Assembly: GCA_001778235.1 (NCBI GenBank)
Contig: MFGJ01000001.1
Span: 69,302-133,301 of the forward strand
DNA length: 64,000 bases
DNA from: Candidatus Falkowbacteria bacterium RIFOXYC2_FULL_36_12
GTDB taxonomy: Bacteria > Patescibacteriota > Patescibacteriia > UBA11705
Reading direction: 5' to 3'
A program made the translations under genes and the position numbers. Positions within the stretch are counted from its first letter, which is position 1. Each line of letters starts with the position of its first letter. Positions 17,377-59,159 of the stretch are shown in pieces. The notes under the pieces were generated by a model, which searched no databases, was not told the DNA's origin, and saw only the letters and a program-made list of their open reading frames with translations.

Positions 17377-17643
17377 TTAATCGTTTTCATACTTCTCAAC
17401 AGTTACAATGACTGAAACTGGGACTGGACCAAACAAAGTATTATTATTCCAAACATATCCTGTGATAACTGTCAGTGAACCAATGAAATAGTTCCTGCCA
17501 ATATGGTACAAAGCATCGGAGATCACAGGACTACGATCCAATGGAGCTTTATCATCCAGAACAACCATTACAACTAAATCATCGACAATCCAGTCAAAAC
17601 GATACAGGAGGTTCTGCTTTGCTGATTTTTCATTGGTAGTCAT
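17377..17643 (-). CDS. Hypothetical protein (88 aa)
   Basis: ORF in tandem with 17662..18102 on the minus strand. Confidence 0.35.
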   Translation of the reverse strand: MTTNEKSAKQNLLYRFDWIVDDLVVMVVLDDKAPLDRSPVISDALYHIGRNYFIGSLTVITGYVWNNNTLFGPVPVSVIVTVEKYEND

Positions 17644-17661
17644 GGTTTGTCTCCCTTCCGA

Positions 17662-18102
17662 CTAGACATAATCGGACATACCCCAGAGTTTGAATTCTGC
17701 TTCATCCCACATGCCATCAGGGTCAAGAAGTGTTTTCAAAGAGTTTTTGGTAGTTTCAAAAAAGGAAAGATCACAACTCTCAACATGCTTACCGACAAGC
17801 GGTGGGAATTCAGTTTTCGCAATCAAGCCAATAAAGACATAATTATTGACGCCTCTACCTTCTTTGAAATGAGTTTTGACCCAGGTAATATAATGAGGCA
17901 GACCAATAACACGATTGCTCTCAAAGTTAATATAGGAAACGGTTGGTTTATCTGGCCCATTGGTCCACATAGGTTTGGCACAATCAGGACAAAATCTGAA
18001 CGGTTGCAATGGATGATGACAACCTCTAATCTCGGTTGCTCGAAAGATGTTTTCCACGGGGATTCTAATACCAATAATTGCATAGGATCTCTGACTGGAC
18101 AT
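17662..18102 (-). CDS. Hypothetical protein with a putative zinc ribbon (CPDC...)
   Basis: Cys pairs CHHP...CPDCAKP. Preferred over the overlapping plus-strand ORF 17647..18258. Confidence 0.4.
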   Translation of the reverse strand: MSSQRSYAIIGIRIPVENIFRATEIRGCHHPLQPFRFCPDCAKPMWTNGPDKPTVSYINFESNRVIGLPHYITWVKTHFKEGRGVNNYVFIGLIAKTEFPPLVGKHVESCDLSFFETTKNSLKTLLDPDGMWDEAEFKLWGMSDYV

Positions 18103-19111: not shown

Positions 19112-19576
19112 TTAAAATGGAATGTTTTCAATTTTGATATCATCACCGTTATCATCATCGGAATGTTTGTTATCATCTTCTGGAATGACTGTCCCGGCTG
19201 GTGCTGTGTCAATTTGAGTATTTGAAGCAGGAGTAAAGTTTGAAGAACCAGCTCGATCAAGCATAATCATATTTTCAGCGACTATCTCGGTTCGATAACG
19301 CTTGACTCCATCTTGTCCCGCCCAATCACGAGTCTGCAAACGACCTTCAAGATAAACTTTGCTACCTTTTTTCAAATATTGAGCACAGATTTCTCCTAGT
19401 TTCCGCCAAGCAACTACATTATGATATTCTACTCTTTCTTGTTTTTGTCCACTGGCATCATTCCAAACAAGATTGGTGGCGACAGAAAATGTTGTGACGG
19501 TTGTTCCCTGTGGTGTTTTTTTTGATTCTGGATCTCGTGTAAGATTTCCAATAATCATTGCTCTGTTTAAATTCAT
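19112..19576 (-). CDS. ssb: Single-stranded DNA-binding protein
   Basis: OB-fold pattern and a C-terminal acidic tail ending IPF. Confidence 0.9.
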   Translation of the reverse strand: MNLNRAMIIGNLTRDPESKKTPQGTTVTTFSVATNLVWNDASGQKQERVEYHNVVAWRKLGEICAQYLKKGSKVYLEGRLQTRDWAGQDGVKRYRTEIVAENMIMLDRAGSSNFTPASNTQIDTAPAGTVIPEDDNKHSDDDNGDDIKIENIPF

Positions 19577-19655
19577 AGGGATATTTTGATTCAGTTTTTG
19601 TAAAAAACCTTTGATAAGAAATTTTTACAAATGATGAAATTAATTGTTATTTTTG

Positions 19656-20324
19656 TTATAGAATGTCATCAGTCAATATCTCATCCAACTTTTTATCAAG
19701 ATCATCAAGACTGATTTTACCTTTTTCCTTTTTCTCTTTTATGATCAAGGGTTCTTCAGACTTGGTCTTTTCAATCGGTTTGGCTTCTTGTTGTTTTTTT
19801 GGCTCAACTTTTTCATCTGCCGGTTCAACGGCCAAATCTTCTACAACTGATTTTTCAACCTCTGGTTTTAATTCAACAGACTGCGGTAAGACTTCGGCAA
19901 CTACTGGCTGATCAACTTTTTCAACAACTGGCTGTTCTTTTACAGCGGTTTTGTCCAAAGCAGCCAATTCTTCTTCTTTGCCTTTTAATATTTTGTCTTG
20001 AATTTTTTGTTCCCTTTCTAATTCTTCGGTTGTTTTGACTTTTTTCTTTACAACTAAAAAGCGTAAAACTTCATTAATTAGAGTCAACTGTTTGTCTAGT
20101 TCTTTTAGATTTTCTGTTGGCATGTCAAACTCAACAACAACATATGTTCCTTGAGTCACCTTCTTTATTGGATATGCCAAACGCTGTTTGCCAAAAATTT
20201 GATTTAAGGTAATTTCACCTTTTTTATCAATAATCTGACTAGTGACTGATTCCATTACTGAATTCAGTTCGTCTCCTGTGTGTTTAATTGAAACAACATA
20301 CAGAAGCTCATAGTGATCTGTCAT
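19656..20324 (-). CDS. rpsF: 30S ribosomal protein S6 with a long charged C-terminal extension
   Basis: N-terminal ~100 aa S6 pattern (YELLYVV...) in the conserved S6-SSB-S18 arrangement. A ~120-aa K/E-rich tail follows. Confidence 0.8.
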   Translation of the reverse strand: MTDHYELLYVVSIKHTGDELNSVMESVTSQIIDKKGEITLNQIFGKQRLAYPIKKVTQGTYVVVEFDMPTENLKELDKQLTLINEVLRFLVVKKKVKTTEELEREQKIQDKILKGKEEELAALDKTAVKEQPVVEKVDQPVVAEVLPQSVELKPEVEKSVVEDLAVEPADEKVEPKKQQEAKPIEKTKSEEPLIIKEKKEKGKISLDDLDKKLDEILTDDIL

Positions 20325-56898: not shown

Positions 56899-57123
56899 AT
56901 GAAAATAAATGTTAAAGTAATCACCAAGTCAAAACTAAATAAGGTGGAAAAAATATCGGATAATGATTATAAAGTCTGGCTAAATGTGATGCCGATTGAA
57001 GGCAAAGCAAACAAATTATTGATAAAATTGTTATCTAAATTTCTAAAAGTTCCAATGAATAAAATCAGCATATTTGCTGGTTCGCGGAATAAAAATAAAA
57101 TAATCACTATTGACAAAACCTAA
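56899..57123 (+). CDS. DUF167/YggU-family small protein
   Basis: VMPIEGKANKLLIKLLSKFLKV...ISIFAGSRNKNKII pattern of the UPF0235 family. Confidence 0.55.
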   Translation: MKINVKVITKSKLNKVEKISDNDYKVWLNVMPIEGKANKLLIKLLSKFLKVPMNKISIFAGSRNKNKIITIDKT

Positions 57124-57172
57124 ACTTTTGTATATAATATGATGTTCTCCGCAGACGGGAAGGACTGGAATC

Positions 57173-57517: not shown

Positions 57518-57600
57518 GTTCAAGATCGTCAAAATGACGGTTTTTTCTTTTATTTAATTTTAGGGACAAACAATACTTTTGTGTCGTAAAACTATACTTC

Positions 57601-57620
57601 AATGTTTCACGTGAAACATT
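57601..57620. promoter_or_regulatory. 20-bp perfect palindrome aatgtttcacgtgaaacatt (copy 1); putative operator or recombination site
   Basis: Perfect dyad centred on CACGTG; an identical copy lies at 58450-58469. Confidence 0.5.
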
Positions 57621-57793: not shown

Positions 57794-58135
57794 TGATTTT
57801 AAAGTAAATTTAAACAAAATTTAGCTATTTGTATAGACTATTGTAGACAAACAGAAAATAAGTTAAATCCTGTTTTTAAAGTAAATTTAAACAAAAATAC
57901 GCGTTTGTATAGACCATTGTAGACATCTATGTGATATTTTCCGAGTAAATACCTATAATTTGCTAATAATCAACATTTTTATAGTAAATTTAAACAAAAA
58001 TTAGCGTTTGTATAGACTATTGTAGACATTTATAAAATTTTCTGTTAAAAATCTGAAATAACCCTACTTTTTTGATTTTAAAGTAAATTTAAACAAAAAA
58101 TAGCCCTAGATGTATAGACCATTGTGTACAAACAT
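57794..58135 (+). repeat. Array of four degenerate ~50-bp direct repeats (iteron-like)
   Basis: Core agtaaatttaaacaaaa...tttgtatagac[ct]attgtagaca at ~57797, 57875, 57977, 58075; spacers of ~28-50 bp differ. Confidence 0.7.
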
Positions 58136-58229
58136 GCTAAATTTTGGTAGTTATCAATAGTTTATCCACAGAATTTTGGTATTTTGGCTGTAATATTGGT
58201 GGAAAAACTATATACTTATTTTTATACCC

Positions 58230-58305
58230 TGGTGACCCCACCAGGACTTGAACCTGGATCAAAGGCTTAGGACGCCCCTATTCTATCCAATTGAACTATG
58301 GGATC
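58230..58305 (-). tRNA. tRNA-Arg (anticodon CCT)
   Basis: Cloverleaf: acceptor GATCCCA/TGGGGTC, anticodon loop GTCCTAA, T-arm CCAGGTTCAAGTCCTGG, CCA encoded. Confidence 0.75.
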
Positions 58306-58449: not shown

Positions 58450-58469
58450 AATGTTTCACGTGAAACATT
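58450..58469. promoter_or_regulatory. 20-bp perfect palindrome aatgtttcacgtgaaacatt (copy 2)
   Basis: Identical to 57601-57620. Confidence 0.5.
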
Positions 58470-58618
58470 TTTTATTTATAATAATATTTTTTTATTATTT
58501 TTACTAGAATTAAACATATTAAAGTGTCGTAAAATATTAATTATTTAATTATCAAAGAGTAAAAGTTTTGAAGAGTGATAATTAATATTCAAAACGCATG
58601 AAACAAGATTTCCTTTGG

Positions 58619-58919
58619 CCATGCACTATAAACAAGTTTAAGTGCATGGCGAGTAAGCTCGCTGTGGGAAAAGTTTCGAGTGAGGAATAAAAATTAATTA
58701 TTTATACCCTGAAACAAGTTCAGGGTGACAGGTGAGTGTGTTGGTGGCGCGCATTACCGCCCCAGACCTGCCTTCATCAAGATTACAGCAGGCAATCCCC
58801 GAGGTTAGTTATGTTCGTGGTTTTATCACGAGAGAAATTGTTTATACCCTGAAACAAGTTCAGGGTGACAAATTGGGAGATACTGAAACCATGCACTATA
58901 AGCAAGTTTAAGTGCATAG
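58619..58919 (+). repeat. Nested direct repeats. The outer hairpin ccatgcactataaacaagtttaagtgcatgg occurs twice. The inner tataccctgaaacaagttcagggtgaca occurs twice. The core is a ~100-nt conserved element.
   Basis: Outer copies at 58619-58649 and 58889-58919; inner copies at 58703-58730 and 58843-58870; core 58724-58825 is homologous to 30238-30318. Confidence 0.7.
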
Positions 58920-58966
58920 AGTGTAAGCTAAGGACAGGCTTCTCATCCTGTCTGTTTAAAATAAAA

Positions 58967-59043
58967 TGGCGTCCGAGACAGGATTCGAACCTGTGACCTA
59001 CAGCTTAGAAGGCTGTTGCTCTATCCAGCTGAGCTACTCGGAC
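58967..59043 (-). tRNA. tRNA-Arg (anticodon TCT)
   Basis: Cloverleaf: acceptor GTCCGAG/CTCGGAC, D-arm GCTCAGCTGGATAGAGC, anticodon loop CTTCTAA, T-arm ACAGGTTCGAATCCTGT, CCA encoded. Confidence 0.8.
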
Positions 59044-59159
59044 ACAATTATGAGGAAATTATAGCAAGAAACCTTCAGTAAGTCAATGATATAGTTGACA
59101 ATTGTTGTTTTTCAGACTATAATATATAGTTGTGAGTCCACAAAGGGGGAGAGATACTG

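What the first reader, a model, noticed from the sequence alone, without database searches (positions are those of the whole stretch)
57794..58135. Array of four degenerate ~50-bp direct repeats (iteron-like) upstream of tRNA-Arg(CCT)
The repeats share agtaaatttaaacaaaa and tttgtatagac[ct]attgtagaca cores but differ at ~15% of positions. Spacers are unequal (about 28, 50 and 48 bp). The degeneracy, unequal spacers and lack of cas genes argue against a CRISPR array. The pattern looks more like iterons or arm-type protein-binding sites, such as a replication or partition centre or recombinase accessory sites. This fits an integrated or remnant mobile element, given the adjacent tRNAs and tyrosine recombinase. 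Each repeat contains the internal direct half-sites tagac.attgtagaca.
Basis: seen in the sequence. Interest (0 to 1): 0.5.

Follow-up and report, generated by a model that had tools for sequence, protein, structure and literature searches.

The report
Regulator binding-site array beside tRNA-Arg
The four repeats are real and are most likely a cluster of docking sites for a small, very conserved DNA-binding protein of the Patescibacteria (CPR bacteria); I found no paper describing its 24-bp palindromic target, which recurs across this group next to DnaA boxes, after two particular tRNA genes and at the protein's own promoter.

Summary
Four direct units lie at 57797-58132, each a 23-bp AT-rich box, a variable linker and a 24-bp quasi-palindrome. 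The cores are 98% and 92% identical between copies; the spacers are at random level (48%).

The window is chromosomal DNA of a Candidatus Falkowbacteria (CPR). Sister species carry one unit at the same place, followed by DnaA boxes, 3' of tRNA-Arg(CCT) and between two perfect parS sites. Unit 4 is that ancestral unit; units 1-3 are extra tandem copies.

The palindrome is the local form of TTTGTATAGACTAGTGTATACAAA, found in at least 119 metagenome contigs. It often occurs in arrays of 2-4 sites 70-110 bp apart. Perfect DnaA boxes are 37-fold enriched beside it. Near tRNAs it is always on the 3' side.

Three copies precede every gene examined of a conserved HTH_17 (Xis/BldC/RacA-like) protein, the proximal one at the promoter's -10. 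I therefore read the array as four operators for that protein (inferred, confidence about 0.6).

It is not a CRISPR array, an origin, a set of iterons or a mobile-element relic. Its physiological output is unknown, and whether this genome encodes the protein was not shown.

The parts
57797..57851 (+). Unit 1: AT box 57797-57819, linker TTTAGCTA, palindrome 57828-57851 (TTTGTATAGACTATTGTAGACAAA)
57874..57927 (+). Unit 2: AT box 57874-57896, linker, palindrome 57904-57927 (TTTGTATAGACCATTGTAGACATC)
57977..58030 (+). Unit 3: AT box 57977-57999, linker, palindrome 58007-58030 (TTTGTATAGACTATTGTAGACATT). The spacer after it (ATAACCCTACTTTTTTGA) looks like a decayed copy of the DnaA-box tail seen in L019.
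58076..58132 (+). Unit 4, the ancestral unit and ortholog of the single unit in L018 and L019: AT box 58076-58098, linker AATAGCCCTA, palindrome 58109-58132 (GATGTATAGACCATTGTGTACAAA)
58151..58170 (+). DnaA boxes belonging to unit 4: degenerate TTATCAATA (58151-58159) and perfect TTATCCACA (58162-58170). The latter is the only perfect DnaA box in the 64-kb window. It lies 51 bp from the start of the 20-nt 3' core, in the commonest offset class seen elsewhere.
57603..57618 (.). parS site 1 (TGTTTCACGTGAAACA, perfect consensus), 178 bp left of the array
58452..58467 (.). parS site 2 (perfect consensus). The parS pair brackets the array, the DnaA box and tRNA-Arg(CCT) in all five Falkowbacteria-like species.
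58230..58305 (-). tRNA-Arg(CCT). The array lies on its 3' side, as at every tRNA-associated copy of the palindrome elsewhere (12 of 12).

Best explanation
The feature is a tandem array of four composite protein-binding units. Each unit has a lineage-specific 23-bp AT-rich box, a linker of about 10 bp, and a 24-bp quasi-palindrome. The palindrome is the Falkowbacteria version of a Patescibacteria-wide operator, TTTGTATAGACTAGTGTATACAAA.

Inferred: the operator is bound by a small (115-140 aa), very conserved Xis/BldC/RacA-like winged-helix protein of Pfam family HTH_17. That protein represses its own promoter through three such operators spaced 70-100 bp apart.

Shown by comparison: the ancestral element at this locus is one unit followed by DnaA boxes. 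It sits 3' of tRNA-Arg(CCT), between two parS sites. In this species it was amplified to four copies by tandem duplication of a unit of about 100 bp. Only the two cores were then kept, and the DnaA boxes decayed in copies 1-3.

Inferred: the four sites, at the same spacing as the autoregulatory arrays, load several copies of the protein into a cooperative or looped nucleoprotein complex next to DnaA-bound DNA. The array lies in a convergent 3'-3' gap with no promoter to control. Its likely output is therefore a protein barrier or sink, for example blocking read-through from the tRNA, or buffering the regulator and modulating DnaA occupancy. Classical promoter repression is unlikely. This last step is speculative.
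For: 1. The cores are conserved and the rest is not: AT box 98%, palindrome core 92%, linker 57%, spacers 48%, equal to shuffled. Unit 4 aligns with the single units of L018 and L019, including the DnaA-box tail.

No flank is conserved beyond 24 bp.

3. Arrays are typical of this element: 62 single sites, 45 pairs, 19 triples and 2 quadruples, 70-110 bp apart. L119 has an independent 4-copy array 12 bp from the 3' end of tRNA-Arg(CCT).

4. The link to the HTH_17 gene is strong. tblastn finds the gene in 29 of the 119 motif-selected loci. In 11 loci a TTGACA-N17-TAnnnT promoter has its -10 overlapping the palindrome. In 5 of 5 genes fetched by protein identity rather than by motif, there are exactly three palindromes, 4-15, 92-106 and 161-184 bp upstream of the ATG, and none elsewhere in those loci.

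5. The protein is a DNA binder of the right type. Pfam gives HTH_17 (best 5e-10). In the AlphaFold model, residues about 11-60 have pLDDT 84-91. The closest folds are Xis, BldC-DNA, RacA-DNA and RdfS. Among 31 homologs, 44 alignment columns are invariant.

6. Perfect DnaA boxes are 37-fold enriched within 150 bp of the palindrome, at fixed offsets. The window's only perfect box follows unit 4.
Against: - No binding experiment exists, so the assignment of the protein to the palindrome rests on promoter co-location only.
- The HTH_17 gene was not found in the window or in the 20-kb Falkowbacteria loci. Two protein searches list no Falkowbacteria-labelled member. Its presence in this genome is therefore assumed.
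- The Foldseek E-values are weak (0.015-0.05), and the C-terminal half of the model has low confidence.
- The window's palindromes deviate from the consensus by 2-6 positions.
- The AT box is unexplained and absent from other lineages.
- The array has no obvious target promoter, so the functional output is conjecture.
- Most metagenome loci were selected by the motif itself, which biases the context counts.
Confidence: 0.6

Rival explanations
1. A centromere-like or chromosome-organising site. The array, together with the two flanking parS sites, forms part of a segregation or organisation hub. The bound protein acts architecturally, like RacA at ram sites or plasmid Par proteins at centromere repeats, rather than as a transcription factor.
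For: - Two perfect parS sites bracket the module in all five Falkowbacteria-like species and in L048, L161 and L067.
- RacA and the pSK1 Par centromere-binding domain are among the fold matches.
- The array lies in a promoter-less convergent gap.
Against: - parS is only about 5-fold enriched near the palindrome overall, and is absent at L119 and L075.
- Most palindrome sites lie in promoter regions of regulatory genes (HTH_17, ECF sigma, dksA).
- The proximal site overlaps the protein's own promoter, which is typical of a repressor.
Confidence: 0.12
2. A functionless relic: a neutral tandem duplication of an intergenic segment that carries one real regulatory site (unit 4). Units 1-3 would have no role.
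For: - Sister species manage with one unit.
- Units 1-3 have lost the DnaA boxes.
- Unit 1 is shortened.
Against: - The spacers have diverged to random level while both cores stay 92-98% identical. That requires selection or conversion acting on the cores only.
- Arrays of 2-4 sites at this spacing are the norm for this element.
- An independent 4-copy array exists at the same tRNA in L119.
- There is no copy-number variation among 12 assemblies.
Confidence: 0.08
3. Four weak promoters or small-RNA genes. Each unit would be a promoter, with the AT box serving as UP element and -35, and a -10 inside or before the palindrome, driving short transcripts.
For: - Each unit keeps a promoter-like skeleton in the same register as the HTH_17 promoter (TTAAAG-N17-TAGCGT before the palindrome).
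- A 28-nt stretch of the 114-aa ORF's promoter region is 71% identical to part of unit 1 (D13).
- A GTGATA-N17-TATAAT match lies in spacer 2.
Against: - The consensus scan finds no promoter at the units, although this genome uses perfect TTGACA-N17-TATAAT promoters nearby.
- The -10 candidates lack the conserved final T, or vary between units.
- There is no Rfam match and no excess RNA structure (z = -1.2 and -1.4).
- There is no ORF of 25 aa or more.
- The downstream spacers are not conserved.
Confidence: 0.07
4. Iterons of a replication origin, either the chromosomal oriC or an integrated plasmid-type replicon. An initiator would bind the repeats and DnaA would assist opening of the AT-rich DNA.
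For: - Directly repeated units, an adjacent perfect DnaA box, AT-rich sequence, parS sites on both sides and a 1.6-kb non-coding region.
Against: - Cumulative GC skew rises through the site, and genes are co-oriented on both sides.
- There is only one perfect and one degenerate DnaA box.
- No Rep gene is present among the neighbours scanned by Pfam.
- The spacing is 76-103 bp rather than about 22 bp.
- Relatives have a single unit.
- The same palindrome-plus-DnaA-box module occurs at a second locus 8 kb away.
- L070 has a conventional DnaA-box and AT-rich origin at dnaA/dnaN without the palindrome.
- 11 of 15 DnaA-box-bearing sites show no skew switch.
Confidence: 0.04
5. Arm-type or accessory sites for a tyrosine recombinase and excisionase, left by an element integrated at tRNA-Arg(CCT).
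For: - The array is next to a tRNA 3' end.
- A tyrosine recombinase gene lies 1.5 kb away.
- The candidate binder has an excisionase-type fold.
Against: - The recombinase is Xer-like (best NCBIfam matches XerD and XerC) and lies on the other side of both tRNAs.
- There is no duplicated tRNA fragment.
- Gene order is conserved housekeeping DNA across five species.
- Phage_integrase flanks the palindrome in 1 of 150 ORFs.
- The HTH_17 gene sits in a conserved cluster with an ECF sigma factor, not with an integrase.
Confidence: 0.03

Closest known systems
BldC of Streptomyces and Xis-type excisionases (MerR-like winged-helix proteins without an effector domain)
   Same: - The candidate binder has the same small winged-helix fold. 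Top Foldseek matches are 4j2n (Xis) and 6amk/6ama (BldC-DNA), with TM-score relative to the target about 0.7, and Pfam gives HTH_17.
- From my own knowledge, these proteins bind several repeated sites and assemble cooperatively.
- The 3' core also contains 10-12-bp-spaced direct half-sites.
   Different: - There is no detectable sequence relationship to any solved structure.
- The CPR protein has an extra, nearly invariant C-terminal segment (KGIGQ..KWKIKNPLYSPNPK) of unknown structure.
- Its site is a 24-bp near-palindrome, repeated every 70-110 bp rather than contiguously.
- It is a chromosomal, radiation-wide, autoregulated gene next to an ECF sigma factor. It is not a phage or ICE directionality factor.
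Multi-operator autoregulated repressors (for example three-operator promoter regions that work through DNA looping)
   Same: - Three operators lie upstream of the regulator's own gene at conserved positions.
- The proximal operator starts at the -10 element.
- Extra operator clusters occur elsewhere in the genome.
   Different: - The window's array is not at a promoter. It lies in a convergent gap after a tRNA gene.
- Operators are frequently fused to DnaA boxes at fixed offsets.
Non-origin DnaA-box clusters (E. coli datA and DARS, B. subtilis DnaA-box clusters)
   Same: - Perfect DnaA boxes sit outside oriC, combined with the binding site of a second protein.
- From memory, E. coli datA also lies next to a tRNA operon and needs IHF.
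   Different: - There is only one perfect and one degenerate box here.
- The partner site is a different, CPR-specific palindrome.
- No evidence bears on DnaA-ATP hydrolysis or titration.
Plasmid iterons
   Same: - Direct repeats with conserved cores, plus a DnaA box and AT-rich DNA.
   Different: - The repeat period is 76-103 bp.
- There is no rep gene.
- The locus is chromosomal and syntenic, and the element is single-copy in relatives.
- The core is the operator of a regulator found at many loci.
RacA/ram and ParB/parS chromosome-anchoring sites
   Same: - RacA is a fold match.
- The array lies between two canonical parS sites.
   Different: - The palindrome's sequence is unrelated to ram or parS.
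- Most copies lie in regulatory regions of transcription-related genes.

Membership tests
CRISPR array | Near-identical repeats of 23-47 bp separated by unique spacers of uniform length | tested here: not met
   Only two short cores are conserved, and the linker inside each unit varies. Spacers are 24, 51 and 47 bp.
CRISPR array | cas genes or a leader nearby | tested here: not met
   The ten neighbouring ORFs on the two sides are housekeeping or unknown, with no Cas domains. The rest of the genome was not examined.
Iteron-type replication origin | Adjacent gene for a Rep initiator | tested here: not met
   Pfam and NCBIfam scans of the neighbours give Sua5/YciO, YggU, two small membrane-like ORFs, a Xer-like recombinase and S15.
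Iteron-type replication origin | Iterons of 17-22 bp, closely and regularly spaced | tested here: not met
   Units of about 55 bp, spaced 76-103 bp apart.
Chromosomal oriC | Switch of GC skew and of gene orientation at the site | tested here: not met
   Skew is +0.118 over the 4 kb to the left and +0.142 over the 4 kb to the right, and cumulative skew rises monotonically.
Chromosomal oriC | Cluster of several DnaA boxes with an unwinding element, usually next to dnaA | tested here: not met
   One perfect and one degenerate box. There is no dnaA in the window. L070 has a separate conventional origin at dnaA.
Integrative-element att or arm-type sites | Duplicated tRNA 3' fragment bounding an island that carries an integrase | tested here: not met
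   There is no partial tRNA copy in the window. The flanks are syntenic housekeeping genes in five species.
Operator array of the CPR HTH_17 regulator (family proposed here) | Match to the palindrome TTTGTnTAnAC-NN-GTnTAnACAAA | tested here: met
   The four sites have 1, 3, 3 and 4 mismatches over 18 specified positions. These are the only matches in 64 kb; null mean 0-1.65.
Operator array of the CPR HTH_17 regulator (family proposed here) | Sites arranged in arrays 70-110 bp apart | tested here: met
   Window spacing is 76/103/102 bp. Autoregulatory arrays are spaced 69-102 bp. Other arrays are listed.
Operator array of the CPR HTH_17 regulator (family proposed here) | The same genome encodes the HTH_17 protein | not tested
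   It is not in the 64-kb window or the 20-kb relatives' loci. Protein searches list no Falkowbacteria-named member. The full MAG could not be searched.
Operator array of the CPR HTH_17 regulator (family proposed here) | Direct, sequence-specific binding of the protein to the palindrome | not testable with these tools
   Inferred only from three conserved sites at the gene's own promoter in 5 of 5 independently fetched genes.
parS centromere (the flanking palindromes, not the array) | 16-bp consensus TGTTTCACGTGAAACA | tested here: met
   Perfect matches at 57603 and 58452. The sequence is given as parS in 13 papers.
parS centromere (the flanking palindromes, not the array) | ParB encoded in the genome | not tested
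   tblastn with a Spo0J sequence written from memory found no hit in the sequence held. The rest of the genome was not available.
LexA (SOS) box of Patescibacteria | Motif upstream of lexA, recA and repair genes | tested here: inconclusive
   No LexA, S24 peptidase or RecA family is among the 25 most frequent families in 150 flanking ORFs. The palindrome triplet sits at the HTH_17 promoter. The paper that defines the Patescibacteria LexA motif could not be read.

The most novel reading that the evidence does not exclude
The palindrome and its HTH_17 protein form an apparently undescribed master regulatory system, conserved across the Patescibacteria, that works physically together with DnaA. 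Composite 'operator + DnaA box' modules would couple replication status to the expression of core transcription factors (an ECF sigma factor, a DksA-like protein, the regulator itself) and to two rare-codon tRNA loci. Amplified arrays such as this one, placed between parS sites, would act as a chromosomal sink or barrier that sets the free level of the regulator or shapes DnaA and ParB loading.
Probability: 0.3. Interest if true: 0.8.

Novelty: new variant of a known kind. Interest (0 to 1): 0.62.

Why it matters
Almost nothing is known about gene regulation in the Candidate Phyla Radiation, which makes up a large share of bacterial diversity and is mostly uncultured. This finding led to three things:

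- a 24-bp operator conserved almost letter for letter across lineages of 26-56% GC;
- a candidate binder whose 85-residue core is nearly invariant;
- a reproducible set of partners: DnaA boxes at fixed offsets, an ECF sigma factor, a DksA-like protein, tRNA-Ala(CGC) and tRNA-Arg(CCT).

Together they give a concrete, testable regulatory circuit. It can be tested by gel shifts or DAP-seq with a 120-residue protein, motif scans of complete genomes, and work in cultivable members if they carry it. It also hints that these reduced genomes tie transcription control to the replication initiator.

For annotation, it explains a class of conserved repeat arrays in CPR intergenic regions that could otherwise be mistaken for degenerate CRISPRs, iterons or mobile-element scars.

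Tried and rejected
- **Two-core pattern scans.** The combined pattern found nothing in genome contigs or viral contigs. The AT box plus palindrome combination is lineage-specific, and the species is not among the representative genomes.
- **Same-species contigs.** They are identical in this region, so they give no comparative signal.
- **RNA families.** Only the tRNAs match, even at E <= 1.
- **Sigma-70 promoter reading.** No consensus match at the units, and -10 candidates are not conserved.
- **Origin reading.** Rejected on skew, gene strand and dnaA location.
- **Mobile-element reading.** Rejected: no att fragments, syntenic housekeeping flanks, a Xer-like recombinase.
- **Structured-RNA reading.** z = -1.2 and -1.4.
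- **Intrinsic-terminator reading of the palindrome.** Rejected by inspection: the stem is AT-rich, no U-run follows, and the conserved G/G asymmetry would break the hairpin.
- **dif or Xer-site reading.** Rejected by inspection: there are several copies per genome and no resemblance to dif arms.
- **LexA-box reading.** Unlikely on flanking-gene content, but the key paper was unreadable.
- **Locating the HTH_17 gene of the window's own lineage.** This failed by tblastn of held loci, by two protein searches and by a cluster look-up that returned no names.
- **Sequence search of the PDB with the family profile.** No relative found.

Full report
**1. The observation**

The sequence at 57794-58135 contains four direct copies of a composite unit. 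The 17-mer AGTAAATTTAAACAAAA occurs four times exactly and nowhere else in the window at up to two mismatches; 0.31 matches are expected by chance. The 20-mer TGTATAGACYATTGTAGACA occurs four times at up to three mismatches, against 0.00 expected. A scan of all 64 kb with the palindromic frame TTTGTnTAnAC-NN-GTnTAnACAAA finds only these four sites.

Twelve independent assemblies of the same population span the whole 1,643-bp intergenic region. Eleven are 100% identical and one has a single mismatch; four further partial copies are also identical. The array is therefore real and stable.

Within the array, the 23-bp AT-rich box is 97.8% identical between copies and the 20-bp 3' core 91.7%. The linker is 57% identical. 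The spacers are 48% identical, the same as shuffled sequence (48 +/- 2%). Only the two cores are maintained.

**2. Context**

The neighbours are housekeeping genes: trigger factor, an AP endonuclease, LOG, YfcE, Sua5/YciO and YggU on one side, and rpsO and pnp on the other. A Xer-like tyrosine recombinase is also present; its best NCBIfam matches are XerD and XerC at about 215 bits, below the equivalog cut-offs.

The array sits in a 1.64-kb non-coding region that also holds tRNA-Arg(CCT) (58230-58305) and tRNA-Arg(TCT) (58967-59043), both on the minus strand. The array is therefore 3' of tRNA-Arg(CCT). On its other side is the terminator of a converging 114-aa ORF.

Exact-protein look-ups place the window in Rifle aquifer metagenomes and two MAGs. 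The closest representative genomes are Candidatus Falkowbacteria, with 64-76% identity for the Sua5-like protein.

**3. Comparison with sister species**

Loci L018-L021 keep the same gene order and the same tRNA pair. They carry one unit, not four. An alignment shows that window unit 4 is the ortholog of the single unit in L018 and L019. It shares the variant TGTGTACAAA, the linker AGCCCT and a tail TTATC...TTTATCCACAG. Units 1-3 are extra copies. The spacer after unit 3 still resembles that tail, which indicates tandem duplication of a unit of about 100 bp, followed by decay of everything but the cores.

Two further features are shared by all five species:

- The palindrome AATGTTTCACGTGAAACATT, present at 57601 and 58450, contains the canonical parS sequence TGTTTCACGTGAAACA. 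One copy lies on each side of the unit and the tRNA.
- The only perfect DnaA box of the window (58162-58170) directly follows unit 4. In the relatives, too, the perfect DnaA boxes sit 30-50 bp after the 3' core, with one exception in L020.

The 3' core also occurs about 8 kb away. There it overlaps the stop codon of a 398-aa gene, is again followed by DnaA boxes, and lies upstream of a dksA/traR gene. In the window species its central 14 bp are precisely inverted relative to L019 and L021. That drew attention to its dyad symmetry.

**4. The 3' core is a widespread element**

My rough estimate of the chance expectation is about 30; this is not a tool result. The 119 contigs hold 148 sites. The dominant form is TTTGTATAGACTAGTGTATACAAA, an 11/12 palindrome, and nothing beyond these 24 bp is conserved.

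- **Arrays.** The sites form 62 singles, 45 pairs, 19 triples and 2 quadruples, spaced 70-110 bp apart.
- **DnaA boxes.** Perfect boxes occur at 2.06 per kb within 150 bp of the element, against 0.056 per kb elsewhere. Half of all sites have one, at preferred offsets: abutting upstream, reversed at about +20, and forward at about +50. The window's box belongs to the +50 class.
- **tRNAs.** Twelve sites lie within 300 bp of a tRNA (random expectation 6.3 +/- 1.8). All 12 are on the tRNA's 3' side, and only tRNA-Ala(CGC) (8 cases) and tRNA-Arg(CCT) (4 cases) are involved.
- **An independent array.** L119, from a different lineage, has four palindromes with a 78-bp period. They end 12 bp from the 3' end of tRNA-Arg(CCT), with different spacers and no AT box. 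Amplified arrays at this tRNA have therefore arisen more than once.

**5. The candidate binder**

Eleven motif-selected loci show a consensus TTGACA-N17-TAnnnT promoter whose -10 overlaps the 5' end of the palindrome. An ORF of 115-140 aa follows. tblastn finds this gene in 29 of the 119 loci.

It belongs to Pfam HTH_17 (best E-value 5e-10). It has about 1,850-1,970 homolog clusters, and the only names attached are 'excisionase family DNA binding protein' and 'helix-turn-helix domain-containing protein', from Patescibacteria MAGs. Its 85-residue core is nearly invariant, with 44 invariant alignment columns among 31 sequences.

The AlphaFold model is confident for residues about 11-60 (pLDDT 84-91). 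Its best structural matches are mycobacteriophage Xis, Streptomyces BldC bound to DNA repeats, B. subtilis RacA bound to DNA, and the RdfS excisionase. TM-scores relative to the target are about 0.7, but the E-values are weak, at 0.015-0.05. No solved structure is related by sequence.

As an unbiased test I fetched five HTH_17 genes by protein identity rather than by motif. Every one has exactly three palindromes upstream, 4-15, 92-106 and 161-184 bp from the ATG. The proximal one lies at the promoter's -10, and there are none in the remaining 3-19 kb of each locus. All five lie in the same cluster: DUF5667 protein <- ECF-type sigma factor <- | -> HTH_17 -> ~580-aa protein.

This is the signature of an autoregulated repressor with three operators. 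The operator spacing (69-102 bp) matches the window array (76, 103, 102 bp).

The most frequent Pfam families among 150 ORFs flanking the palindrome are the ECF sigma factor (18), HTH_17 (13) and DksA/TraR (13). Neither DnaA nor DnaN is among the 25 most frequent families. The loci with a DnaA-box cluster flanked by two palindromes are upstream regions of dksA.

**6. What it is not**

- **An origin.** GC skew and gene orientation do not switch at the site. Of 15 DnaA-box-bearing sites in other contigs, 11 show no skew switch. L070 has a conventional origin at dnaA/dnaN without the palindrome, while its palindrome-plus-DnaA module lies 6.5 kb away, upstream of dksA.
- **A mobile-element scar.** There is no att-like tRNA fragment, the flanks are syntenic, and an integrase flanks the palindrome in only 1 of 150 ORFs.
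- **A set of promoters or RNA genes.** The units have no consensus promoter, although perfect promoters lie nearby. There is no Rfam match, no ORF of 25 aa or more and no excess RNA folding.
- **A CRISPR array.** The repeat anatomy rules it out.

**7. Mechanism: what is shown and what is inferred**

Shown:
- The array consists of four copies of two conserved cores.
- It arose from a single ancestral unit with DnaA boxes.
- The 3' core is a radiation-wide palindrome that occurs in arrays, next to DnaA boxes, 3' of two tRNAs, and in triplicate at the promoter of an HTH_17 gene.

Inferred, with confidence about 0.6:
- The HTH_17 protein binds the palindrome, so the array is a four-operator cluster that loads several copies of it next to DnaA-bound DNA.

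Speculative:
- The array lies in a convergent gap, so it may act as a barrier to read-through from the tRNA towards parS and the converging gene. It could also act as a sink that buffers the regulator, or as a modulator of DnaA occupancy.
- The AT-rich box has phased A/T tracts and is 98% conserved here and present in L018 and L019, but absent elsewhere. It may be an architectural or second-protein site. Its role is unexplained.

**8. Novelty**

Full-text searches found no paper containing the palindrome and none describing such a regulon in Patescibacteria. The one potentially relevant paper, on the Patescibacteria LexA motif, could not be read. The flanking-gene content argues against a LexA box.

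The kind of thing, a transcription-factor operator array, is ordinary. What appears to be undescribed is this particular conserved operator-regulator pair, its fixed coupling to DnaA boxes and to the 3' flanks of two tRNAs, and its amplification between parS sites.

**Main caveats**

- No binding data exist.
- The HTH_17 gene has not been shown in this genome.
- Most contextual statistics come from loci selected by the motif itself.

Noticed in passing
window 57603-57618 and 58452-58467: Two perfect parS sites (TGTTTCACGTGAAACA), 849 bp apart, bracket the array, the DnaA box and tRNA-Arg(CCT). The pair is conserved in L018-L021, and similar pairs occur in L048, L161 and L067.
   Followed up: partly
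window 57581-57591 and 58524-58534: A conserved motif, GTGTCGTAAAA, lies 11 bp left of parS 1 and about 57 bp right of parS 2, in the same orientation. It is also present beside the parS sites of L018, L019 and L021, and as GAGTCGCA in L020. Its function is unknown.
   Followed up: no
window 58619-58659 / 58889-58929 and 58696-58730 / 58836-58870: Two pairs of repeated hairpins lie between the two tRNA genes. Both have the loop AAACAAGTT (CCATGCACTATAAACAAGTTTAAGTGCATGG and ACCCTGAAACAAGTTCAGGGT). L119 has analogous hairpin repeats between its tRNAs. They may be processing or spacer elements of a tRNA operon.
   Followed up: no
L011 20428-20491 (same species, about 2.7 kb beyond the window's right end): A second palindrome site overlaps the TAG stop codon of a 398-aa gene with no Pfam match. 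Its central 14 bp are exactly inverted relative to L019 and L021. Three DnaA-type boxes follow it, and it lies about 570 bp upstream of a dksA/traR gene.
   Followed up: partly
L019 about 19290-19660 and L021 about 17470-17800: A conserved promoter-like TATAAT and a conserved, possibly structured stretch lie between the palindrome/DnaA-box module and the dksA-like gene. There is no Rfam match. It could be a leader or a small RNA.
   Followed up: no
L061, L077, L115 and L162 (for example L162 9858-9871): A second palindrome, GGCTTATATTAGCC or GCTTATTTTAGCC, recurs 10-15 bp upstream of the 24-bp operator in several lineages. The window's linker (TTAGCG, TTAGCT) resembles its right half.
   Followed up: no
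L162, L165, L166, L168 and L170: A conserved gene cluster: DUF5667 protein <- ECF-type sigma factor <- | -> HTH_17 regulator -> ~580-aa protein without Pfam domains. It was found in all five independently fetched genes.
   Followed up: partly
window 57110-57138 and 59095-59123: Perfect TTGACA-N17-TATAAT promoters precede the 114-aa and 133-aa ORFs. Both products appear to have a hydrophobic, membrane-like segment and have no family match. This CPR genome uses canonical sigma-70 promoters.
   Followed up: no
L074, L131, L102 and L153: Some metagenome hits to the search pattern are unrelated (GTGTAGACAT)n-type microsatellites or GC-rich contigs. They inflate the raw hit count slightly.
   Followed up: no
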